Assembly: GCA_000004985.1 (NCBI GenBank)
Contig: GG738856.1
Strand: one strand, 5' to 3'
Length of the DNA: 64,000 nt
Origin: Naegleria gruberi
Lineage: Eukaryota
Part shown: positions 23,658 to 49,002 of the stretch, piece after piece
Position numbering within the stretch: position 1 is the first letter of the stretch
Layout: every line of letters starts with the position of its first letter
Program-made: the position numbers and the translations under genes
Notes under the pieces: generated by a model
What the model was told of the DNA's origin: nothing
What the model saw: only the letters and a program-made list of their open reading frames with translations
Database searches by the model: none

Positions 23658-26600
23658 TTATGATAAGGTAGATGATGGATTGAAAATATTGCCATTCGAT
23701 AATGAATCCACAAATGGGTCACTGAAGCTTCTATTAATTCTTTCGGATGTTGGAGTATATTGAGGTTGCTGAGCTTGGTTTACTGGCTTTCTAATTGGCA
23801 CAGGTTGAAGTTGTGGAACCATGCTGAAATTGGATAAGCTACCACCAGATACACCTTTTGGATCTTGTATCACTTTGGCTGGAGAAGTCAAGCTTTTTGG
23901 ATCAGGTTTTACAGAACCATTGTTAGTAGGTTGTTGGGTAGTGCTAACAATGAGTTGATGCTGGTGAACTTGAGAAAATATTGATTGTGGCTTATCCATA
24001 CTGAGGTTTTCTAAATTCTTACTGATGAGTGAAGTTAATTCATTATTGTCAGTTGGTTTAACTACCACGTTCACATTGACATTCAACTGACCAGCTGGCT
24101 TGGCAACTGGCTTGACTGGAGCTGTTGGTGATGCATTTGATGAAACTCCAATCTGATTTGGTGTTGTTGGAGTTGTTTTGATTCTGTCATCACTAATTGA
24201 GCTGGTAGTAGTTTGAATTGATGTACCAATAATTTTAAAGGAATTGTTTGAAGATTGTCTCAACTTATTTACAATAGTTGTGGCAGTAATTAATGAGGAA
24301 CCCTCTGATGGTAATTTAACCTCAGTGAGCTTGTTTTCCATATCATTAATTAGTCTGGCACTGAGATTTGACATTTGGTAAGGATTTACAATCTTCAAAT
24401 TACTATTATTTGAGACTGGATCAAATTGGAATGGTGTCATTTTGGTTTCGAGAGGAACGTTGAATTTTTTCATCAGCTCCATTTGCTCCTTTCTTTGTTT
24501 TGCCTTCAAAAGTTCCATTTCTTCATACTGTTTTTGTAATAATTGCTCCCATTGTGCTTCAAAATCATCAGACTTTACCGCAACATTTGATCTTGCATTG
24601 GTTGGACTTGTTCGTGTTGACTTGTTAGGTTGTGTTACATTTGTAGTTACAACATTCGTATTGTTAAGGGCAGGGCTGGATTGATTTCTTAAAAGAGGAG
24701 AGTTGGATTTCTGTTCAGGTGACTCCTTTTTAACAGCTTCACCAACCTTTTTTGTTTCCACAGTGAGGGGTTTTTCTGTCTTGGTAGAGTCAAAATTGTT
24801 TGAGAGGAGGGTAGGTGTTGTTGTTTTTGGGGATGGAGAAGTATTTGATGTTGAAGTTGTTGGAGAGGAAATGTTAGCTTGAGTATTATTATTGGTGGCA
24901 CTCTTATTCTGGTCAGTAGTAGCTACTCCAACACCATTCTGTGGTGTAGTGTTGATTGGTTTTGGAGGATTATTTGGTGTTTGTTTGATTTGTTGCTGAT
25001 TATTGACAGGTGTTGCACCATTTGTTTTTGGTGTGTTATTAGCTTGCTGAGGTGTCACTACTGGTTTGAGAGTTAATTCATTTGTCTTTGGAGTGGAAAG
25101 AGGAGGAAGCTTCTTATCAACAAATGGAGTTATTTCCTTAATAACTGGACCATTAAAAGGTGAAATTGGTTGTGGAACAACTGGACTTGAAAGGTTAATA
25201 ATTTCAGCTTCTCTCACTGGTGTACCCTTTGTTGGTGAATCGATAGGTTGATCCCTTTTGGTTGGAGTGGTTGACCTTTTTGGTGGTTCAATAATTACAG
25301 GAGTTTCTACAATTTCTAAAGATTTCTCTTTTGTAATTTCAGAAATGGATTTAACTGAAGTAGTTGGTTCTGTGTTTGAAGAAGAACTATCACTCTCAGC
25401 ACTACCCTTAGTTGTTAAGAAATCGAGCTTGGCCTTTGTTAGACAATCAGATAGTGCTTTTGATATCGAGTCAACGAATGATTCTGTGAGTGAAAGTTCA
25501 TTCACCATTTCTCGAGCAACTTCTATTGGGGTGTCTTTCTTCAAGTTGAAAGCAAATTTGATTTCCTTATATTTTTTGTTTCCGTCCACCTTAATATATA
25601 GCTTTGTATTAACAGAATATTTGTCATTAGTAGGATCATTTCCAAGAACAACTCTGACATCTTCTCGTTCTTCTTCTTCATCAGATGAAGATACTTCATT
25701 ATCCTCTTCCTCGATGCCAAAATAAAAGATTGTATCATTATTTGTAATATCAGTCATAAATCTATGATTCATCAATTCGGCTGCACTTGGACGTATATCC
25801 TTATGACAAATGCATAAATTAATAAATTCTTTCACGTCGGGATCTTTAACTCTTTCTATACCTTCTGGTTTAACACCAGATGTTACTCGTCTATATACTT
25901 GGGCAATACTGTTACATTCACTATAAGGATATTCACCAGTGACCATTTCCAAAACACAAAGGCCAAATGCATAAATATCAACCTTCTCGTTATAACGTTC
26001 CTCATAAAATTCTGGAGCCATAAATTCTGGTGTACCATTCACTGAAGTTGCAAACTTTTTATCTTTCATGCTTACTGAAAGACCCAAGTCTCCAATTTTA
26101 ACTTCTCCTCTACTGCCATTCATGAAAATATTATCACATTTCAAGTCTCTGTGAATGATCGAGTGGGCGTGAAGGTAACTCAGACCTTCTAACACTTGTT
26201 TACACCACTTTTTAATATTTCTCAATCTTACTTTCTTTGAATTTCTTATGAAACTAGATGGAAATTTGTTAAAATTTAAAAAAGAGCTAAATCACTTACT
26301 CTTTTAAGGTACCAGAACTCATTAATTCTGTAATAAATATTAAATAATCGTCTTCAGTTTCCCACGAATCATATATATTAATTATTGATGCATGTTTTAA
26401 TTGTCCAAGTATACTAATTTCCTGCATAATCTTTTTCTTTTGGTTTGGTGCAACACCAGCAAGTTTGATTTGATTCCAAGCGACTTCAATACCCTCTTCG
26501 GTATCATACGCCCTGTAGCTGTTTAGTGTTGGTGATGATGATTATTGAAAACATTAAATATATTATTACAATAATATTATACTTACACTGTCTTGAAGGC

Positions 26601-26666: not shown

Positions 26667-27708
26667 GGTTAATAGTTGTTGTTATATAAAAATTGTTTGA
26701 TAGCACAGTTGATAAACTCTGCTTTCGCTGAGTTGATTGTTTGGTTGATATTGTTGTGTAATGTACCACAACAGAACAAGATGATAGTTTTTCCAGTTTG
26801 ATAAAATCCAATATTTGCCAGATGAGAGCCCAGATATCGAAAAGAAATCGAGTATACTATTATTAAAACTTCTCTTGTAGATTGAAGTGATGAACAGTGG
26901 TTCAATTTCTTGAAGAATGGATCTTTGAAGAGAATCCGAATAGAGTTTAATTGATGATGATTCGGTGTTTGTTTCTAGAGCCAATTTTGTGCAATAGATA
27001 TCTTCCAATTAAATCTCTAATGTTCCGTTTTGTGAGAGTAAAATTGATAATCAATCCAATTGATATTGTTGAATATTATATGTTCAATATAATTATTGTT
27101 GACTATTAGAAGGCCTTCCACAACTTTGTTCGTGGACACAAAAATCCGTGATGAGTTCGAGTTTTTTTCGAAATGAATGTCTTCTTCCCTTGTTCTTCAT
27201 CTCATCACAGTGCAAAATTCAAGCGGTAAATAAAACTGTAGAGAACAACCACAACGCTATGATTTGATGGCACAGGTTACCAAGCAAGAACATTGCCCAT
27301 CAAGCTTGGCGTTTAAAGGGAAACACAAGACCATTTGTATTAACACCTTGAGCGAAATTACAATTAATTGGATTGACAAGTAGTTGGCGGGAAACGAATC
27401 ATACACAAGCTAGGCTATTTCTTCTCAAATTGTTGTCTTTCTCAAATTCTTCCTTATGAAGAAGAGAATTCAGAGTTTAGTATGATGAGATGCAATAGTG
27501 AGACAATTCCAATGTGCACCTTCTCCTTCAAGCTCTTAATGGCGTTATTGAACAAGATGGTATTATTAGATAAAAATGTTACATGCTGGTAAATTGTTTG
27601 GTTCTAATGAATTCCAAAATCAACAACAACCAATAGAATCTTCTTCACCTCCCCCAAAATTTCATCAACAACAGAAAGAAGATTAACATCCCTTCTCTCC
27701 CATTTACA

Positions 27709-28558
27709 GTTGGTTGCTTCTCCTTTTGTTAGACATTCAACCAATGTTGTGCAATACTTTTCCAACAATAATAATAACAAAATAGTGGAAGATGTTAATG
27801 TAAATCATCACAAAATAATCAAGAAGGAAAACAAACAATTTAATAATTCAACACCAAATCAATCCGATAATACTCTCCTTCAAAATTTACTTTCAAAATC
27901 TTCATCATCAAAAAGAAAGAATTTGATTAATGATAACAACATCCAACAAACACCAACAATAGACAATCAAACATTGAATCAATTAGCAGATGCTTCAACA
28001 CGTTCCAAAACATCGGGTGCTGATGTATTATTGCAATTTTCACCTCTAGTTTCTGGCCAAATCAAACAAGCACAAGTTACTTATATTTCTCCTCATTCTG
28101 CTTCGGAATCTGCCGATTCAACTTCAATGCAAGCTGGAGTTTTATTGGTTGCTTCTACGAGAGCAGATTTGAGAAGAGCTTTTATTGAAAGATTGTGTCA
28201 AGCTGCTGTGGAAAGATCTGCATTGGTTTACTCTATTGCAACACAAGGTGGTGTCAATGTTTCAACAGATGGTGTTTACAAATTATCAACTCATCCAACA
28301 TTATCAAGAAGAGCCATTTTGAATGCATTATTGAGACATGGAGCTCACTTATTAGTGTTTGGTACAATCAGCACGAGAGATGATGTCATGTCTTTGATGG
28401 ATGCTGCCTATACAGGTTATCATTGTGTTGCTGAGATTTATGGTGAATCAGCTCATGACGTTCTTTCAAGATTGGAAGCTATTGGAGTTGATGTTTCAAT
28501 GTTACCTCAAAATTTGAGAATAGTTGTTCCAGCAAATACTACTTCATCTCTTACATAA
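27709..28558 (+). CDS. Protein whose C-terminal ~190 aa resembles the C-terminal half of PilT/VirB11/GspE-type secretion ATPases (Asp-box and His-box regions) but lacks a Walker A. Probable upstream exon(s) not defined.
   Basis: 'ILNALLRHGAHLLVFGTISTRDDVMSLMDAAYTGYHCVAEIYGESAHDVLSRLEAIGVDVSML' is comparable to GspE '[58 protein letters not shown]'. The Walker A position reads 'ASTRADLRR' and the Walker B Glu is replaced by Thr. A TTTACAG acceptor immediately precedes 27709. The N-terminus is Asn-rich low complexity. Confidence 0.55.
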
Positions 28559-28743: not shown

Positions 28744-28817
28744 TTACAGCGAGCGGGGCTTGAACCCGCGACCTTAAGCGTGTTAGGCTTACGATCTAAC
28801 CAACTGATCTATCGCTG
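28744..28817 (-). tRNA. tRNA-Val (anticodon AAC)
   Basis: The minus-strand read is GCAGCGATAGATCAGTTGGTTAGATCGTAAGCCTAACACGCTTAAGGTCGCGGGTTCAAGCCCCGCTCGCTGTA. Cloverleaf: 7-bp acceptor, D-arm, anticodon loop CTAACAC, T-arm GCGGG/TTCAAGC/CCCGC. Confidence 0.85.
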
Positions 28818-29023
28818 CTTACACTGTTTTTATCCTTAATACATCGAGAGCCTTAATTTAGAGTTAGATGGTAGAGGTTTGAATTTAAAGGTTCGTATTC
28901 CATTCGAGTAGCCTTAATTAATAAAAAGAAGAATAATCTATTAAAATCTTTTAAGAGACACTAGTTAAAAATTGGTTAGAAACAGGTTCATAGTTCGTTA
29001 ATGAATAAGTTCAATTAAAAAAA

Positions 29024-30301
29024 ATGCTCAACAACATTTATGCTCTCATCACTGGCAATCCACTGCCATCATCAGATTCATTGCAATTAAATAATACGCC
29101 AGAGGATGAGGAAAAATCAAATCAATCGTGTCCACCGTCATTCTATGAAGAGAGTGGGATCTTTTTTAAAAGTTATGATTCTTTGGAATATTGTAAATAT
29201 TTGTATGATCCAAATCAATTCGTTGCACAATTTAAGAGTTGTTTAGAGGAAGAGAATTTTACCAAGTTGAGAAATTTGAGAATTCTTATTCAACATCAAA
29301 CAACTCATATATGTCGTACTAGAAAGTATAATTTCAGGCCAATTAAGGTGGAAGGTGAGGTTAAGAAGAAGAATGTTGAATTGAAAGAGCATGTATTAGT
29401 GAATGCTTCCATCAATAGTAAATATTATAGAAATGAATTATTGGATGTGAGTGATAAGGTTGGAAATCCAGAGAAGGATACTCAAGTTTTGGTTTTTAAC
29501 GGAGATTGCCTTGATATTGCATTCCATGTTCAAGATTTATTGATGAAGGAAGGTCAATTAGGAAAGGAACGAGTTGCGGTTTTGAATATGGCCAATCCCG
29601 AGCAACCAGGAGGAGGATACAAGACTGGGTGCGGGTAAGTTAGTAACTACTATTTCAATTAATTTAATTTAACCTTTAAAAGAGCTCAAGAAGAAAACTT
29701 ACATAGAAGATCAAACTTGTATCAATGTTTGGATAATCCAGTTGATAGAATCGATAAGAAAAGAACATGGTCCTATCCAATTGGTTATGAGAGTGGTGTC
29801 TTTAGCCCAGATGTAACTGTTTTTAGAGGTTGTGAGGCCAAGGGTTATCCACTCCTCTCAGCTCCAAGATTAATTGATGTTATCACCGCAGCAGCAGTTC
29901 CTAATTCTGCATACAATGATGGAAGTATCGATAATAGAAATATTGGATCCATTGAGGCAATATTGAAAATTGCAGTTCAACATAAGGTGAGAAATCTTGT
30001 TCTTTCAGCTTTGGGTTGTGGAGCTTTTAGAAATTCTCCAACAGCTATCGCTCAAGTTTTCAAGGAAAAGATTGAAAGCACTGAATTCAAAGGTCATTTT
30101 GATAGAGTTTTCTTTGCAATTATCGATGATCACAATGCAAAGAAAGTGCACAATCCAGATGGAAATATCAAACCATTCGTCCAAGTGTTTTCTAAATATT
30201 TGAAGGAGAGAGAAGATTTGCCACAACTCATTGGACAACAATTTGATTATGATTATGATAACATGGCATTAGAATATCATGAATTCTATGCAAATCTCTA
30301 A
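29024..30301 (+). CDS. TIGR02452/DUF2263-family macro-domain-like (PARG-like) protein. Two exons: join(29024..29634, 29683..30301).
   Basis: Exon 1 ends 'VLNMANPEQPGGGYKTGCG'. The intron is GTAAGT...TTTAAAAG (48 nt, phase 2). Exon 2 continues 'AQEENLHRRSNLYQCL...LSALGCGAFRNSPTAIAQVFKE', the conserved GCGAFxN block of this family. Confidence 0.85.
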
Positions 30302-30563: not shown

Positions 30564-30634
30564 TGCGTCGACCGGGAATTGAACCCGGGTCACGGCGATG
30601 GCAACGCCGTATTCTACCACTAAACCATCGACGC
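30564..30634 (-). tRNA. tRNA-Gly (anticodon GCC)
   Basis: The minus-strand read is GCGTCGATGGTTTAGTGGTAGAATACGGCGTTGCCATCGCCGTGACCCGGGTTCAATTCCCGGTCGACGCA, a canonical eukaryotic tRNA-Gly(GCC). Confidence 0.9.
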
Positions 30635-30961: not shown

Positions 30962-33236
30962 ATGAAACACATTCCACATTTAAAACCAGGCCAATGCCAT
31001 GAAAATGATAAAGCCGAAGTTGTTCTTTTACATGAACCAGGATTAGAAGCCTTGTTAGGATCACTTCATGCTTCCGGTTCATTGTTTGAAAAACCAGTTA
31101 ATTTGCAATTAGCTAGAAAAAATCATCAAGGTTTTAAAGAAGCCCTGAGAAGACACGGAGTTAAAGTTATGGATGTTAGAGATATTTTGGCAATGAATTG
31201 TGAGCATTCTTTGAAATGCAGAGTTGAATTGGAAGAATTAGCTTTAAAGTGTATGAAATATGTTTGTGATGATGGTGATGATGAAGCAACAACAGATTTT
31301 AATGATTTAACATCAATTCAAAAGTATTTATTAACTGATGATTATAAGAGAGAATGTTTATCAACAATGGGTGTTAATGATTTAATTGATATCATCTTGT
31401 TGGGTCCAACTGTTAGATTGGTTCCTTCATCAACAAATACTCCAATGAGATTGGAAAGATTAGGTATGAGACCTCTTCTTAACTTGACCTTTACTCGGGA
31501 CCAACAAATTGTCACCAATAGAGGTCTTGTTATTTGTCGTATGGGAAGTTTGCAAAGACATCAAGAAACTAAAATTTTGAAATTCTGTTTTGAAAAGTTG
31601 GGATATGAAATTTTGGGAGAAATTAAAGAGCCAGGTATTATTGAAGGAGGTGACTTTTTGGTTGGTGGTGCTGATATCTGTTATATTGGTGAAGGTTTGA
31701 GAACTAATCCAGATGCCATTCGTCAAATGCTTGATAATGATTGGTTTGGAACTAGACGTGTTGCTGTCGTTCATGATTACTTTGATTGTGATCAACAAAG
31801 AATGCACTTGGATACCTTCTTTAACATTTGTTCACACAATTGTTGTGTCATGCTTGAAACTGTTATGGGAGAAAACTCTCCACTCAGACGTTTGGTTACT
31901 GAATATACCAAGAATGAACAAGGAAAGTATGAAGTGACTCGTTTCAATGTTGAATTTTCCAAATATATTAAGGAAGAAGGTTATCATATTATCTCAGTTA
32001 CTGAAAAGCAACAAGAAATGTATGGTATCAACTTTTTGAACATTGGTGGAGGTATCAACATCACTATGGATGAATCAACCAGTAGAAAGATGTTGCAAGA
32101 TCCAAACTTTGATGGTGAAATTGACCGTATTGATTACTCTGGTATGACTACCATGTATGGTTCTCTCCATTGTTCATCTCAAGTTCTTCAAAGAAAGAAG
32201 ATTGAAGTCAATGAATTCAGAAATGTTCCAACAACTGTTGCCGAACAACCATACATGCACCCATGTAAGGAATTTGACTCTCAATCATCAAAGAACGTTT
32301 TACTTGTTGTTCCAAGTTATCACACTGTTCATGCTACTAATAGCAAGTCATTGTCAGCTGCCAAGCATGAAGCTATTTCCAATACTGATATCAGTAGAAT
32401 TAAGGAACAACACAGACATATTCTCTCCGAAATTCACAAGGAACTTACTCAACATGATGTCAATTGTGTAATCTTTACTCAAAGACCAGATATTCCAGGT
32501 GACTCTACTGCTCACTTCCCAACTCACAACATTTCTTCACACGCCAATAATATCATTCTTTATTATAAGGAATCTGAACGTTCTGATAGAATGGACAAGT
32601 TGGCCAAGACTTTGAACATGTTCTACAAGGAAAAGGCAACCATTCAAAAGAATGTTGAGGATCAAACCACTCTTGATTTTATTCAAGGTACTGCCAGTTT
32701 AGTTTTCGATAGAATCAAGAAGAGAGCATTCTATGTGTTNNNNNNNNNNNNNNNNNNNNNNNNNNNNNNNNNNNNNNNNNNNNNNNNNNAAGATTGAATC
32801 ATTTGTCAAGTCATTGGGTTACAATGAATTTATTCCATTTGCTAAGGAAAGATACACAAGAGGTTCTCTTGATATTTTGGACTATTCCAACTCTCACTTG
32901 TTCATTGGTACCAAGTTTGTTGTTATGTGTAGAGATGAATTCATTAATGAAGGTGATTATGAAAAATTGCAATCCTACTTTACTGATAGAACTATCATTT
33001 CCATCTCTAAGGAACAAAGAATGTGCAATTGCATTAACGGCCTTATTGAACTCCAATCTAAGGATGGAAAGATTATTCTCTTTGCTTCCAAGCTTTCTTT
33101 GAATGTTTTGAAGGATGAACAACTTGAAAAGATCAAGGCATCCGTAGACGAAGTTGTCCCAATTGATTTGAGTATTCTTGAATCGAGATATCACGTTTCA
33201 TTGAACAACTTGATTGCTCCACTCTTTGTTGAATAA
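30962..33236 (+). CDS. Long-form pentein-fold enzyme of the amidinotransferase / arginine-deiminase family (PF02274-like). The ORF is interrupted by the assembly gap at 32740-32789.
   Basis: The N-terminus 'AEVVLLHEPGLEALLGSLHASGSLFEKPVNLQLARKNHQGFKEALRRHGVKVMDVRDIL' is the family's N-terminal block. 'GGDFLVGGADICYIGEGLRTNPDAI', 'RMHLDTFFNI' and the C-terminal catalytic 'YGSLHCSSQVL' are present. The reading frame continues after the N-run to a TAA at 33236. Confidence 0.75.
32740..32789. other. Assembly gap (50 N)
   Basis: A run of n characters. The flanking sequence lies inside one coding gene. Confidence 0.99.
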
Positions 33237-46626: not shown

Positions 46627-46697
46627 ACTTAATGTAGGGGCGGTGGTGTAATGGTAACATCGCAGCCTCCAAAGCTGTGGCCGGGGGTTCGATTCCC
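46627..46697 (+). tRNA. tRNA-Trp (anticodon CCA)
   Basis: GGGGCGGTGGTGTAATGGTAACATCGCAGCCTCCAAAGCTGTGGCCGGGGGTTCGATTCCCCCTCGCCCCC. The anticodon loop is CTCCAAA with U33, the T-arm is GGGGG/TTCGATT/CCCCC, and the acceptor stem is 7 bp. Confidence 0.85.
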
Positions 46698-49002
46698 CCT
46701 CGCCCCCTACATTTTAATTTTCCCAACATTTTACTTGATGCGCACTAACAATTAGACCATTCATCCTTCGTTTACATAAAATTTATTGTAATTTTTCATC
46801 AATCAAGATCGTGTTGTATTAACATCGGTTCAAAATAATTCCATCATCTAACCTTGATTAGTCAATAAGCCAATCCATTTGATCAATTTCCGAAACTATT
46901 TTCTCTGAATTGGACCATCAAATCAACACGTTGTAGGACTCTCGATATTGTTAGGGTAATAAAGAGAGATTACAACTTGGTTGACTGCATCATCTACACG
47001 GATGCGAAATGGAGAAGAGCATTTTTGGTTTTCTTCAGGTTAAACTGTTTCTGTATGCGAAAATCAAAGCTTTGAAGTTTATCCAATTAATCCTCTGTAG
47101 TGTGTGCTTGCATATATTTGTATATTGGATTTTATACAATGAAATTGTAATCTAATTACTGTAGTGGTAGATTATTCGTGCAGAAGATAGCTAGTGAGGG
47201 TGTTTTTCCACATTATCTTGGCGAAGAGGTAATATTTCTTTAGGTCAAACTTATTCGAAACAAGATTGCCTAGATTCGTCTGCTAATGGTCATGTTATCT
47301 AGTTACTGTAAATGATGAAGATGATATTATTAAGTAATTAAACATTCTCATTTCCATCTCATTTCAATGATTTCTGAATGAGATTTCATGCTTTAAATTA
47401 TTAGAAACGTTTCGTATTTGGATAAAAGAAAATTTTGTACATTTTCAATCATCTAGGAATGGATGTCTCCAAACCTTATAAAGCTCCTTTTTTAATTGGT
47501 CATTTGGGTGAGAAAATTACTTTTGTGAATGTGTGAAAACTTTACAATAATTTACAGTTGGTGGAATAGTTTACAGTGTGTGGAATGAACTGGTAAGGTC
47601 ACTGTTCTGTAGTTGATGATTACGTTCCGCTTTCAAACAGAGTAAATGAGTAAACGTTTATTCGATTCGAATAACATCAGTTAAAGAAATTGAGTCGTGC
47701 TAAGAAGTGTTGACAGCTGGCAGTTTCACTAATGTGTAAAAAGATAGTCATCTTTTACCAATTGTTGACAATTCCTAAAGAATCCTTTTAACTTTTTCAC
47801 ACTTGTGATGATTAGTATACAATATCTTCAATTCGAAATGATTCTCGACACGCTTAAATGACCCTGCTCTTTCACGATGCTCAAGAGAATCATCCTGCCG
47901 CTCAGAATCCTCAATATTTTTTACAATTTCACTTCTCAATTGTATACGAAACTGAAAGAATCCACATTTTACAATCAGAATCAGACGAATCATAAGGATG
48001 CCATTGAGCAATTAAGAATCGCGTATCATCACCATAATGATTGTAAGGAACACACCCAAATTCGCTACATCCCACTTTGCCAACAGGACGAATCCAAAAT
48101 TGTGTCATTCCAAAACAAGTCAATTAAATCCCATTAGTGAAAAAAGAATCCAAATTGACATGAAACCAATTAGCAAACAGATGTTGTTGAGATGAGAATC
48201 AGAAATGTAGCACCAAACCAAACACAACATATCAGAGATACAGAGTTTTAGATTCACAGAATTTAAACTTGGACTAGCTTATGAAAATAGAAACACTTTC
48301 AGATTACGTTGTGACGGTTTGGATTCGGTTGGGTTACTCCTGCAAGTCATCCAATTCCTAAAGTGAATGTTTGATTGTGTTTGCATCTCATGAGTTGATG
48401 GAACGAAACTATGAACTGTTTTGTTATGTGAATGAACTATCACATAATATTCGAAACCTTTCTCTTTTCTTTCGTCTACTTGTTTGTTTACATACAACAA
48501 CAACAAGAACATGATAAATGCATCAATTTGTAAAGCCAGTATAGACAGTACTCACCTGAATTCGTTCGAGGATAACCAAACTTTCAGATAATTACAAACT
48601 AGATCAAAGGACCGTACCTTCATGCCAAAACAAGTTTCACAACCCGGGGAAAGTTAACCGCCAACAGGAGGAATAACACATTCTAGCTGTTTGGCAACTT
48701 TTTCCCAAAACTTTCTCTATACCCACGAAATTTGCTTCAAACGTCAACTGCCACAAATCTAGAAGATAAATCGCAAATGTCATGTCTAGAAACATTCATA
48801 CACACCGACGCACCCTCTTGGAATCACCACTGAGTCGGCAAACACACGAAAAACTATTTGAATTTTGCATCCATTTGATTATTGTCATCATTAAAAAAAA
48901 CAACAACACATTCTTCTCTAGTTTAGTCAATTAGAGAATTAAACAAATAGATTATCCTAGTCCCTATTTTCAATACTTTCATATCTGATACTACCACTAA
49001 CC

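What the first reader, a model, noticed from the sequence alone, without database searches (positions are those of the whole stretch)
27709..28558. Eukaryotic protein with a degenerate PilT/GspE-type secretion-ATPase C-terminal region lacking Walker A
The last ~190 residues align by eye, block for block, with the region of type II/IV secretion and pilus-retraction ATPases that spans the Asp box to the His box (…LRxxPDxxxVGEIRDxE…AAxTGHxVxSTLHTN…RLxDMG…). The NTP-binding positions are lost: Walker A reads ASTRADLRR and the Walker B Glu is Thr. A bacterial-type secretion-ATPase fold turned into a pseudo-ATPase and fused to an Asn-rich eukaryotic N-terminus would be unusual. It could be a scaffold or regulator derived from an HGT-acquired or organelle-derived PilT-like gene.
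Basis: inference. Interest (0 to 1): 0.55.

Follow-up and report, generated by a model that had tools for sequence, protein, structure and literature searches.

The report
Dead secretion ATPase GspEL of Naegleria

Summary
The ORF at 27710-28558 (+) exists, and its last ~190 residues are homologous to type II/IV secretion ATPases. Pfam T2SSE scores above its gathering cut-off in all 25 family members. hhalign against eukaryotic GspE gives E 1.3e-9. Foldseek's top hits for an AlphaFold model are PilF/PilB/GspE. Walker A (ASTRADLRR), the Asp box, Walker B (Glu to Thr) and both His-box histidines are lost.

The window is Naegleria gruberi (Heterolobosea, not Amoebozoa). The gene is GspEL of the mitochondrial T2SS, described with the same pseudo-ATPase reading by Horváthová et al. 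2021 (PMC8134430).

No upstream exon exists. The CDS is one exon, 27576-28558, broken by a one-base assembly error: inserting T before 27654 reproduces the published 327-aa protein. The "TTTACAG acceptor" is coding sequence.

It lies inside a conserved N-terminal nonapeptide, RLTSLLSHL (27680-27706), which matches the peroxisomal PTS2 consensus. I found the same motif in 52 of 55 published GspE, GspF, GspG, GspEL, GspEN2A and GspEN2B sequences and in 0 of 26 GspD, Gcp1 and Gcp7 sequences. The papers I could search do not mention it. It may be the ligand of the system's Pex7-like WD40 proteins; this is untested.

Verdict: real, correctly interpreted, already known.

The parts
27576..28558 (+). 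Complete GspEL coding sequence. Single exon. It encodes the published 327-aa protein once one missing T is restored.
   Evidence: Inserting T before 27654 gives exactly the corrected XP_002679742.1 sequence of PMC8134430 Supplementary Data 1. The N. lovaniensis and N. fowleri orthologues are uninterrupted ORFs of 337 and 344 codons.
27653..27654 (+). Site of a one-base assembly error (missing T in CCTCCC^CCAAAA). It shifts the frame between the ATG and the rest of the gene.
   Evidence: Exhaustive single-insertion scan, with a unique solution. [quoted passage not shown] RefSeq model P0001 instead invents an intron at 27601-27785, which removes conserved residues.
27680..27706 (+). Conserved N-terminal nonapeptide RLTSLLSHL (residues 36-44 of the corrected protein). 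It matches the PTS2 consensus [RK]-[LVI]-x5-[HQ]-[LAF] with a hydrophobic residue at position 5.
   Evidence: Canonical match in 14 of 25 homologues and relaxed match in 21 of 25. The 4 without a match have N-terminally truncated models. Shuffle mean 0.28, maximum 3. Consensus taken from PMC7710942. Predicted helix, pLDDT about 75. dN/dS about 0.10-0.13 for this block.
27719..27757 (+). Second short block, SPFVRHSTNVVQY, conserved among Naegleria species just after the motif.
   Evidence: Alignment A1. It is removed by the RefSeq intron model.
27758..28015 (+). Asn/Ser/Gln-rich disordered linker, specific to this lineage in length and sequence.
   Evidence: pLDDT below 50. Only 20-28 of about 80 residues are identical to the other Naegleria species, with pN about 0.5. 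Absent or short in Acrasis, Andalucia and metagenomic homologues.
28016..28534 (+). Conserved GspEL core, a truncated C1E (RecA-like) domain of a T2SSE ATPase. It has no N2E domain and no C-terminal CM/C2E part.
   Evidence: Pfam, hhalign and Foldseek. The Pfam match ends at profile position 273 of 370, nine residues before the stop. dN/dS is 0.01-0.03 at dS 0.8-1.4 among three Naegleria species.
28151..28177 (+). Walker A remnant ASTRADLRR, in place of GPTGSGKST.
   Evidence: Gap-free extension of the hhalign register against eukaryotic GspE. A beta-strand-loop-helix is predicted here (E177-181, H185-201). No family member has GK[ST] at this position.
28226..28261 (+). Asp-box remnant VYSIATQGGVNV. 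GspE has YTLESPVEV here, and both acidic residues are lost.
   Evidence: hhalign alignment.
28337..28384 (+). Walker B remnant HGAHLLVFGTISTRDD. PilF has QDPDIIMVGEIRDSET here. DPD becomes GAH and the catalytic Glu becomes Thr.
   Evidence: HMMER alignments to PilF and hhalign.
28409..28450 (+). His-box remnant YTGYHCVAEIYGES. PilF has LTGHLVIATLHTND here. Both histidines are replaced by Tyr.
   Evidence: HMMER alignments to PilF.

Best explanation
Shown: this is the nuclear gene for Naegleria gruberi GspEL. GspEL is a paralogue of the mitochondrial type II secretion system (miT2SS) ATPase GspE. It keeps only the central RecA-like C1E domain and has lost every catalytic signature: Walker A Lys, Asp-box acids, Walker B Glu and the His-box histidines. 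It is under very strong purifying selection, so it is a working protein and not a relic.

Inferred: it cannot bind or hydrolyse ATP in the normal way and acts structurally. The most likely role is the one its discoverers proposed. It pairs with the N2E-only protein GspEN2B to form an inactive GspE-like unit. That unit joins, caps or regulates the GspE/GspEN2A ring that drives GspG pseudopilus assembly on GspF.

Inferred, and added here: its conserved N-terminal amphipathic helix RLTSLLSHL is a targeting or docking handle. The helix has the PTS2 form and is shared with GspE, GspF, GspG, GspEN2A and GspEN2B. The candidate receptors are the Pex7-related WD40 proteins Gcp1-3 that co-occur with the system.

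The confidence of 0.55 is for the whole statement. Identity as GspEL is about 0.97, loss of ATPase activity about 0.9, the role as an inactive ring partner or regulator about 0.45, and the motif as a ligand of Pex7-like proteins about 0.3.
For: Identity:
- 100% match to N. gruberi XP_002679742 (P0001).
- Orthologues in N. lovaniensis, N. fowleri, Willaertia, Acrasis and Andalucia godoyi, the last named 'T2SS-related protein GspEL1'.
- Exact match to the published corrected sequence after one T insertion.

Homology and fold.

Motif loss.

Functional constraint: core dN/dS is 0.01-0.03 with dS 0.8-1.4. The upstream WNK-type kinase neighbour is the same in three Naegleria species. The protein was detected in the N. 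gruberi organellar proteome (PMC8134430).

Published model of inactive and active GspE units: PMC8134430 Discussion and PMC10128026.

Motif:
- 52 of 55 E/F/G/EL/EN2A/EN2B sequences carry it within the first 80 residues. 28 of 55 match the a-priori canonical PTS2 pattern.
- 0 of 26 GspD, Gcp1 and Gcp7 sequences carry it.
- Shuffle expectation is 0.03-0.2 per family.
- Percolomonas transcriptomes lack all six motif-bearing families and also lack Gcp1-3.
Against: - No experiment places GspEL in a complex with GspE or GspEN2B.
- In the published proteome GspEL fell in the putative peroxisomal cluster, while GspE, GspEN2A and GspEN2B were mitochondrial. This does not fit a simple mixed ring.
- My own check of the Pex7 relationship of Gcp1 and Gcp2 was inconclusive. 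Against PDB sequences they hit generic WD40 proteins first (RBBP4/p55, WDR24). Pex7 (3w15) scored only E 4e-13 for Gcp1.
- The relaxed motif pattern was defined after seeing the sequences.
- A similar internal string in GspDN2 is explained by the ordinary secretin N-domain helix, so such helices can arise for other reasons.
- The Percolomonas co-loss is not specific, because 12 of 16 Gcp families are missing there, and it rests on transcriptomes.
Confidence: 0.55

Rival explanations
1. GspEL is a genuine peroxisomal matrix protein. Its N-terminal RLx5HL is a working PTS2 read by canonical Pex7. It acts in peroxisomes, for example by receiving or holding the unknown miT2SS cargo, and not in the mitochondrial GspE ring.
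For: Canonical PTS2 with hydrophobic position 5 at residues 36-44, conserved across genera. [quoted passage not shown] The authors' working model already links the miT2SS to peroxisomes.
Against: The same motif sits on GspE, GspF, GspG, GspEN2A and GspEN2B. These are mitochondrial by proteomics, and partly by antibody or heterologous expression, so the motif alone does not specify peroxisomes. The authors warn that peroxisomes and mitochondria may not have been fully separated. A truncated ATPase domain whose closest relatives work as ring subunits has no obvious job alone.
Confidence: 0.25
2. It is still an NTPase, or a nucleotide sensor, that uses non-canonical residues.
For: The core is extremely conserved, including charged residues (RRAIL, TRDD, YTGYH). 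Some orthologues (Gefionella, Malawimonas) keep Gly-Glu at the Walker B position.
Against: No family member keeps the P-loop Gly-Lys-Ser/Thr. Asp-box acids and His-box histidines are also gone. The C-terminal subdomains of the ATPase are absent.
Confidence: 0.04
3. It is a decaying pseudogene or relic, as the frame break between ATG 27576 and the ORF might suggest.
For: In this assembly the ATG and the conserved ORF are in different frames.
Against: The break is reported as an assembly error corrected from raw reads. The orthologues are intact single ORFs. Core dN/dS is 0.01-0.03. The protein was detected by mass spectrometry.
Confidence: 0.02
4. The resemblance to secretion ATPases is chance or generic Rossmann-like similarity, or the DNA is bacterial contamination.
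For: Single-sequence phmmer against PDB ranked a PLP-dependent enzyme first (E 0.0034) and PilF only at E 0.16. NCBIfam scores lie far below the equivalog cut-offs.
Against: Pfam above the gathering cut-off in 25 of 25 members, hhalign E 1.3e-9, Foldseek top 50 almost entirely T2SSE-class ATPases, and a reciprocal profile search in which all seven tested non-family hits are T2SSE ATPases. Base composition is 33% GC, flanked by eukaryotic genes and tRNAs, with conserved synteny in three Naegleria genomes.
Confidence: 0.01

Closest known systems
GspEL (GspE-like) of the mitochondrial type II secretion system, Horváthová et al. 2021, Nat Commun 12:2947 (PMC8134430)
   Same: It is this protein. 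The N. gruberi entry XP_002679742.1 in their Supplementary Data 1 equals the window's CDS after one T is restored. The domain content and the loss of Walker A, Asp box and Walker B are the same, and so is the reading as a dead ATPase.
   Different: Nothing about the gene itself. Added here: the His-box histidines are also lost, the RefSeq intron model is shown to delete conserved residues, dN/dS is quantified, and a PTS2-type N-terminal motif is pointed out. The paper and the 2023 review do not mention that motif.
Bacterial GspE / PilB / PilF / PilT secretion and pilus ATPases (Pfam PF00437 T2SSE)
   Same: Homologous RecA-like C1E core. The order of strand, P-loop position, Asp-box strand, Walker B strand and His-box strand is the same. 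Structural superposition covers about 130 residues at about 3 A.
   Different: No N1E or N2E domains and no CM zinc module or C2E. All four catalytic motifs are destroyed. It is eukaryotic, nuclear-encoded, and carries an N-terminal targeting-type helix and a disordered linker. It sits closer to the GspE/PilB extension-ATPase class than to PilT in Foldseek rank.
Eukaryotic (mitochondrial) GspE of the same organisms
   Same: Paralogue with the same C1E core (hhalign E 1.3e-9), the same N-terminal R-[LIV]-x2-L-L-x-H-[LIM]-x-P motif and the same taxon distribution.
   Different: GspE keeps GPTGSGKST, E-x-P-V-E, DPD..GE and the His box, and has the C-terminal Cys-rich part. It is mitochondrial in the N. 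gruberi proteome, whereas GspEL fell in the peroxisomal cluster.
PTS2-bearing peroxisomal matrix proteins (for example 3-ketoacyl-CoA thiolase) imported by Pex7
   Same: N-terminal nonapeptide fitting [RK]-[LVI]-x5-[HQ]-[LAF] with a hydrophobic fifth residue, within about the first 40 residues, conserved in orthologues.
   Different: The motif is shared with five protein families experimentally assigned to mitochondria and is usually followed by x-Pro. Pex7 dependence is untested.
Catalytically inactive paralogous subunits of ring ATPases (for example the non-catalytic subunits of F- and V-type ATPases), the analogy drawn by the authors
   Same: A dead paralogue retained under strong selection next to an active one.
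   Different: Mixed-ring assembly is not demonstrated for GspEL, and it is much more truncated than those subunits.

Membership tests
T2SSE secretion/pilus ATPase superfamily (Pfam PF00437) | Profile match above the curated gathering score | tested here: met
   27.5 bits against 24.9, E 1.6e-6. All 25 family members match.
T2SSE secretion/pilus ATPase superfamily (Pfam PF00437) | RecA-like C1E fold superposable on solved GspE/PilB structures | tested here: met
   Foldseek hits to PilF, PilB, GspE/EpsE, FlaI, DotB and PilT: E 3.6e-7 to 1e-5, about 130 columns, rmsd about 3 A. Model pLDDT is 84-92 in this domain.
T2SSE secretion/pilus ATPase superfamily (Pfam PF00437) | Walker A G-x-x-G-x-G-K-[ST] | tested here: not met
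   ASTRADLRR at 28151-28177. The Lys position is Leu, Val or Ile in every member.
T2SSE secretion/pilus ATPase superfamily (Pfam PF00437) | Asp box acidic residues | tested here: not met
   SIATQGG aligned to TLESPVE.
T2SSE secretion/pilus ATPase superfamily (Pfam PF00437) | Walker B with catalytic Glu (DPD-hhhh-GE-hRD) | tested here: not met
   GAHLLVFGTISTRDD aligned to DPDIIMVGEIRDSET. A few orthologues keep GE.
T2SSE secretion/pilus ATPase superfamily (Pfam PF00437) | His box (TGH...H) | tested here: not met
   TGYHCVAEIYGES aligned to TGHLVIATLHTND. Both His are replaced by Tyr.
T2SSE secretion/pilus ATPase superfamily (Pfam PF00437) | Full architecture: N2E domain plus the complete C-terminal domain (CM/C2E) | tested here: not met
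   The Pfam match stops at profile position 273 of 370 and the protein ends nine residues later. The N-terminal half is disordered and has no N2E match.
T2SSE secretion/pilus ATPase superfamily (Pfam PF00437) | Hexameric ring assembly and ATP hydrolysis | not testable with these tools
   Needs biochemistry or complex prediction with partner sequences.
GspEL family of the eukaryotic miT2SS | Orthology to the published GspEL sequences | tested here: met
   Identical to the corrected N. gruberi GspEL after one T insertion. A. godoyi GspEL1 matches at E 2.8e-57. The family is sharply separated from all other proteins, with 14 representatives at or near E 1e-10 (worst 1.5e-10) and the next hit at 2.6e-5.
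GspEL family of the eukaryotic miT2SS | C1E-only architecture with abrogated nucleotide-binding motifs | tested here: met
GspEL family of the eukaryotic miT2SS | Restricted to lineages that carry the miT2SS (heteroloboseans, jakobids, malawimonads, hemimastigotes) | tested here: met
   All named hits are Naegleria, Willaertia, Acrasis or Andalucia. The rest are unnamed metagenomic or transcriptomic sequences. The wider distribution is taken from PMC8134430.
GspEL family of the eukaryotic miT2SS | Co-occurrence with GspD/E/F/G in the same genome | not tested
   None of the other miT2SS genes lies in this 64-kb window. Co-occurrence is taken from the paper.
PTS2 cargo of the Pex7 import pathway | Nonapeptide [RK]-[LVI]-x5-[HQ]-[LAF] with hydrophobic position 5 | tested here: met
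   RLTSLLSHL at 27680-27706.
PTS2 cargo of the Pex7 import pathway | Located near the N-terminus (about the first 40 residues) and conserved in orthologues | tested here: met
   Residues 36-44 of the corrected protein. 14 of 25 canonical and 21 of 25 relaxed matches in homologues, against a shuffle mean of 0.28.
PTS2 cargo of the Pex7 import pathway | Motif specific to peroxisomal proteins of the organism | tested here: inconclusive
   The same motif is on GspE, GspF, GspG, GspEN2A and GspEN2B, which are mitochondrial in the published proteome.
PTS2 cargo of the Pex7 import pathway | Pex7-dependent import into peroxisomes | not testable with these tools
   Only indirect support: assignment to the peroxisomal cluster in the published proteome.

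The most novel reading that the evidence does not exclude
The PTS2-type N-terminal helix is carried by GspEL (27680-27706) and by five other miT2SS families: GspE, GspF, GspG, GspEN2A and GspEN2B. In this reading it is the recognition element for the three Pex7-related WD40 proteins (Gcp1-3) that exist only in miT2SS-bearing eukaryotes. A duplicated PTS2/Pex7 module would then have been recruited to target or dock the inner-membrane platform of a mitochondrial secretion machine. It could stand in for the missing GspL-N1E contact, or it could physically couple the machine to peroxisomes. The motif and this link are not mentioned in the 2021 paper, its supplements, the 2023 review or any other paper found in the searchable library.
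Probability: 0.3. Interest if true: 0.7.

Novelty: already known. Interest (0 to 1): 0.3.

Why it matters
The gene belongs to one of the more surprising recent finds in organelle biology: a bacterial type II secretion system retained in the mitochondria of a few protist lineages, whose substrate and function are still unknown. GspEL itself is already described, so re-finding it adds nothing on its own.

Three things may be useful:
1. The public RefSeq model of this gene is wrong. It places a spurious intron over a one-base assembly error and so deletes the conserved N-terminal signal.
2. The dead-ATPase status extends to the His box, and the core is under very strong selection (dN/dS 0.01-0.03).
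3. All six inner-membrane-side miT2SS families share a PTS2-like N-terminal helix, while the system co-occurs with three Pex7-like WD40 proteins. This gives a concrete, cheap hypothesis for what those WD40 proteins bind, for how subunits that lack recognisable mitochondrial presequences are handled, and for why peroxisomal signals keep appearing around this pathway.

Tried and rejected
1. Intron model. I first joined ATG 27576 to the ORF by a GT..AG intron (27589 or 27601 to 27674, length equal to 2 mod 3). I dropped it when the paper's raw-read correction turned up and a single T insertion reproduced the published protein exactly. The orthologues are also intronless.

2. The RefSeq intron at 27601-27785 (P0001). 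Rejected because it removes the residues ERRLTSLLSHLQLVASPFVRHSTNVVQY, which are conserved in other Naegleria species.

3. Single-sequence and profile HMMER against PDB sequences. These were weak (PilF E 0.16 and 0.026). The top single-sequence hit, a PLP-dependent enzyme (E 0.0034), together with an NCBIfam cysteate-synthase hit (E 0.035), is treated as chance alpha/beta similarity.

4. Twin-arginine (Tat) signal. An Arg-Arg pair often precedes the motif, but no hydrophobic h-region follows, so this was rejected.

5. My own test of the claim that Gcp1 and Gcp2 are Pex7-like. phmmer against PDB returns generic WD40 proteins first, so the result is inconclusive. The Pex7 link rests on the paper's phylogeny.

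6. The internal [RK]LxxFLxHFD[RK]PP string in GspDN2. It looks like the motif but corresponds to the usual secretin N-domain helix plus 'LDxP' element. That correspondence is from my own knowledge of the Secretin_N family and was not tested here. I kept it as a caveat, not as evidence.

7. Literature searches for GspEL, miT2SS, PTS2, Pex7, Naegleria and Gcp1. They found no follow-up that mentions the motif. Absence from this library does not prove it is unpublished.

8. Complex prediction of the motif with Gcp1-3.

9. Supplement coverage. Parts 3 and 9-12 of Supplementary Data 1 (remaining GspG, GspDL, GspDN1, Gcp8-16) were not read, so the motif census is incomplete for those families.
Full report
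WHAT IS IN THE SEQUENCE

The window has about 33% G+C throughout. An ORF of 282 codons lies at 27710-28558 on the + strand. The ORF tool starts it at a TTG, but the frame is open back to 27611. It has no in-frame ATG until residue about 140. The translated ORF is 100% identical to 'predicted protein [Naegleria gruberi]' (P0001) on a 602-kb contig. The window is therefore N. gruberi nuclear DNA.

IS THE ATPase RESEMBLANCE REAL?

Yes. The evidence:
- Pfam T2SSE (PF00437) matches residues 189-273 at E 1.6e-6. The score of 27.5 bits is above the curated cut-off of 24.9.
- NCBIfam ComGA and GspE models match the same stretch, far below their equivalog cut-offs.
- All 25 members of the family alignment hit PF00437, best E 1.8e-8.
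- A profile-profile comparison with four eukaryotic GspE sequences gives 96.4% probability, E 1.3e-9, over 112 columns.
- An AlphaFold2 model built on the 25-sequence alignment is confident (pLDDT 84-92) over the C-terminal ~140 residues and disordered over most of the N-terminal half.
- Foldseek against the PDB returns PilF, PilB, FlaI, BfpD, GspE/EpsE, DotB and PilT as the top hits: E 3.6e-7 to 1e-5, probability 1.0, about 130 aligned columns, rmsd about 3 A.
- A family profile searched against 1.84 billion representative proteins finds only 14 GspEL-type clusters at or near E 1e-10 (worst 1.5e-10). After a gap, hits appear at E about 3e-5 to 1e-3. Seven of these were tested and all are full-length T2SSE ATPases.

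CATALYTIC MOTIFS

Extending the hhalign register without gaps puts ASTRADLRR on GPTGSGKST, so the P-loop Lys becomes Leu. SIATQGG falls on the Asp box TLESPVE. GAHLLVFGTISTRDD falls on DPDIIMVGEIRDSET, so the Walker B Glu becomes Thr. TGYHCVAEIYGES falls on TGHLVIATLHTND, so both His-box histidines become Tyr. No member of the family has a Gly-Lys-Ser/Thr P-loop. The Pfam match ends at profile position 273 of 370, just before the stop. The zinc-binding and C2E parts of the ATPase are therefore missing, as is any N2E domain.

THE GENE IS ALREADY DESCRIBED

The Andalucia godoyi homologue is named 'T2SS-related protein GspEL1'. Horváthová et al. [quoted passage not shown] It is one of 27 protein families restricted to heteroloboseans, jakobids, malawimonads and hemimastigotes that carry a mitochondrial type II secretion system, the miT2SS.

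The authors propose that GspEL pairs with the N2E-only protein GspEN2B to form an inactive GspE-like unit. They suggest this unit may mix with active GspE/GspEN2A units in a ring. The 2023 review repeats this as a regulatory role. In their N. gruberi organellar proteomics, GspEL fell in the putative peroxisomal cluster, whereas GspE, GspEN2A and GspEN2B were mitochondrial.

GENE MODEL

[quoted passage not shown] I tested every single-base insertion in the region. Only a T inserted before window position 27654 (CCTCCC^CCAAAA) reproduces that protein exactly. The N. lovaniensis and N. fowleri orthologues are uninterrupted ORFs of 337 and 344 codons.

The gene is therefore a single exon, 27576-28558. 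The 'TTTACAG acceptor' is coding sequence for S-H-L-Q, and no upstream exon is needed. The RefSeq model (P0001) bridges the frameshift with an invented intron at 27601-27785. That intron deletes residues conserved in the other Naegleria species. My own first attempt, an intron at 27589/27601-27674, was also unnecessary.

IT IS NOT A RELIC

Between the three Naegleria species, the core (28016-28534) has 164-172 of 173 identical residues. Synonymous sites are near saturation (dS 0.8-1.4), which gives dN/dS of 0.01-0.03. The Asn/Ser-rich linker (27758-28015) has only 20-28 of about 80 residues identical to the other two species. The upstream neighbour, a WNK/OSR-type kinase on the minus strand, is the same in all three genomes. 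The linker is short or absent in Acrasis, Andalucia and most metagenomic homologues. The 'Asn-rich eukaryotic N-terminus' is thus a lineage-specific disordered spacer and not a fusion partner.

THE N-TERMINAL MOTIF

Restoring the true N-terminus exposes RLTSLLSHL (27680-27706, residues 36-44). This fits the canonical PTS2 nonapeptide [RK]-[LVI]-x5-[HQ]-[LAF] with a hydrophobic fifth residue, normally found within the first 40 residues (PMC7710942).

In the 25 homologues, 14 match this a-priori pattern at the aligned position. 21 match a relaxed form. The four that do not match have N-terminally truncated models. Shuffled N-termini give a mean of 0.28 matches and a maximum of 3. The segment is predicted as a helix with pLDDT about 75, and its dN/dS is about 0.1.

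Reading the published sequences, I found the same motif, usually followed by x-Pro, near the N-terminus of five more families:
- GspE: 8 of 8
- GspF: 8 of 8
- GspG: 8 of 9
- GspEL: 10 of 10
- GspEN2A: 10 of 10
- GspEN2B: 8 of 10

It is absent from GspD (0 of 9), Gcp1 (0 of 9) and Gcp7 (0 of 8). By eye it is also absent from GspDN1-3 N-termini, Gcp2-5 and most Gcp6. Of the 55 sequences in the six positive families, 28 match the canonical PTS2 pattern, against a shuffle expectation of about 0.6 in total.

The miT2SS co-occurs with three WD40 proteins, Gcp1-3, which the authors place next to the PTS2 receptor Pex7 by phylogeny. Percolomonas transcriptomes lack all six motif-bearing families and also lack Gcp1-3. 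The main text, the nine supplementary files, the 2023 review, the A. godoyi genome paper and the other papers retrieved do not mention a PTS2 or a shared N-terminal motif in any Gsp protein.

CAVEATS ON THE MOTIF

- Five of the six motif-bearing families are mitochondrial by experiment, so the motif is not simply a peroxisomal address.
- My phmmer test of Gcp1 and Gcp2 against PDB sequences returned generic WD40 proteins first (RBBP4/p55, WDR24). Pex7 scored only E 4e-13 for Gcp1. The Pex7 link therefore rests on the paper.
- The relaxed pattern was defined after seeing the sequences.
- A similar internal string in GspDN2 is explained by the ordinary secretin N-domain helix.
- The Percolomonas co-loss is not specific.
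- Parts 3 and 9-12 of Supplementary Data 1 were not read, so Gcp8-16 and some Gsp families are not covered.

MOST LIKELY MECHANISM

Shown: this is GspEL, a truncated and strongly conserved C1E domain without catalytic residues.

Inferred: it cannot hydrolyse ATP and acts structurally. The best-supported role is the authors' proposal of an inactive partner, with GspEN2B, that joins or regulates the GspE ring powering pseudopilus assembly. Its N-terminal helix serves as a targeting or docking handle, possibly read by the Pex7-like Gcp proteins.

The main rival is that GspEL is a true PTS2 cargo working inside peroxisomes. That would fit its proteomic cluster but not the presence of the same motif on mitochondrial subunits. 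Pseudogene, active non-canonical NTPase, chance similarity and contamination are each contradicted by the results above.

VERDICT

The gene and its pseudo-ATPase nature were published in 2021, so the finding is already known and scores low. The residual value lies in the corrected gene model and in the shared PTS2-like motif, which yields a testable hypothesis about the Pex7-like proteins of this pathway.

Noticed in passing
window 27601-27785 and 27653-27654: The public RefSeq model of this gene (XP_002679742, P0001) bridges a one-base assembly error with an invented 185-nt intron. That intron removes the conserved N-terminal motif and the SPFVRHSTNVVQY block. Anyone using the RefSeq protein would miss the targeting-type signal.
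   Followed up: yes
published sequences of GspE, GspF, GspG, GspEN2A and GspEN2B (PMC8134430 Supplementary Data 1); not in this window: The PTS2-like N-terminal motif R-[LIVM]-x2-[LIV]-[LIVMA]-x-[HQ]-[LIVMF], often followed by x-P, is shared by all six inner-membrane-side miT2SS families (52 of 55 sequences). It is absent from GspD, Gcp1 and Gcp7 (0 of 26). The papers searched do not mention it.
   Followed up: partly
GspDN2 sequences in PMC8134430 Supplementary Data 1: GspDN2 proteins carry an internal [RK]-L-x2-F-L-x-H-F-D-[RK]-P-P string resembling the same motif, and C-termini with high PTS1-predictor scores (..PRL, ..SRL, ..PRM). The N. gruberi protein is nevertheless mitochondrial in the proteome. 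I attribute the internal string to the generic secretin N-domain helix, but did not test this.
   Followed up: no
GspEL of Gefionella okellyi and Malawimonas jakobiformis (PMC8134430 Supplementary Data 1): These two orthologues keep Gly-Glu at the Walker B position (FGEVSTRDD, FGEIATRDD), although Walker A is lost as in all others. The Glu-to-Thr change seen in Naegleria is therefore not universal in the family.
   Followed up: no
window 28745-28818 (-), 30564-30634 (-), 46637-46707 (+): Three tRNA genes: Val(AAC) 187 nt downstream of the GspEL stop codon on the opposite strand, Gly(GCC) and Trp(CCA).
   Followed up: no
window 29024-30301 (+): Two adjacent same-strand ORFs (29024-29638 and 29717-30301) look like the two exons of one gene for a microbial-type poly(ADP-ribose) glycohydrolase (PF10021, E 9.8e-11 on the first ORF), separated by a short intron. 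In N. lovaniensis and N. fowleri the downstream neighbours are SUI1 and a canonical PARG on the other strand, so downstream synteny differs.
   Followed up: partly
window 30962-32797 (+): ORF of 611 codons with an arginine deiminase domain (PF02274, E 1.4e-50) followed by a weaker eukaryotic DDAH-like match (PF19420).
   Followed up: no
window 23658-26225 (-): WNK/OSR1-type protein kinase (Pkinase plus OSR1_C/CCTL2). This is the same upstream neighbour as in the N. lovaniensis (L001) and N. fowleri (L002) GspEL loci, so local synteny is conserved on this side.
   Followed up: partly
residues 208-270 of the ORF (window about 28331-28519): Single-sequence searches gave weak hits to PLP-dependent beta-family enzymes (PDB 9k2p, E 0.0034; NCBIfam cysteate synthase, E 0.035) over the same stretch that matches the ATPases. 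I treated these as chance alpha/beta similarity.
   Followed up: no
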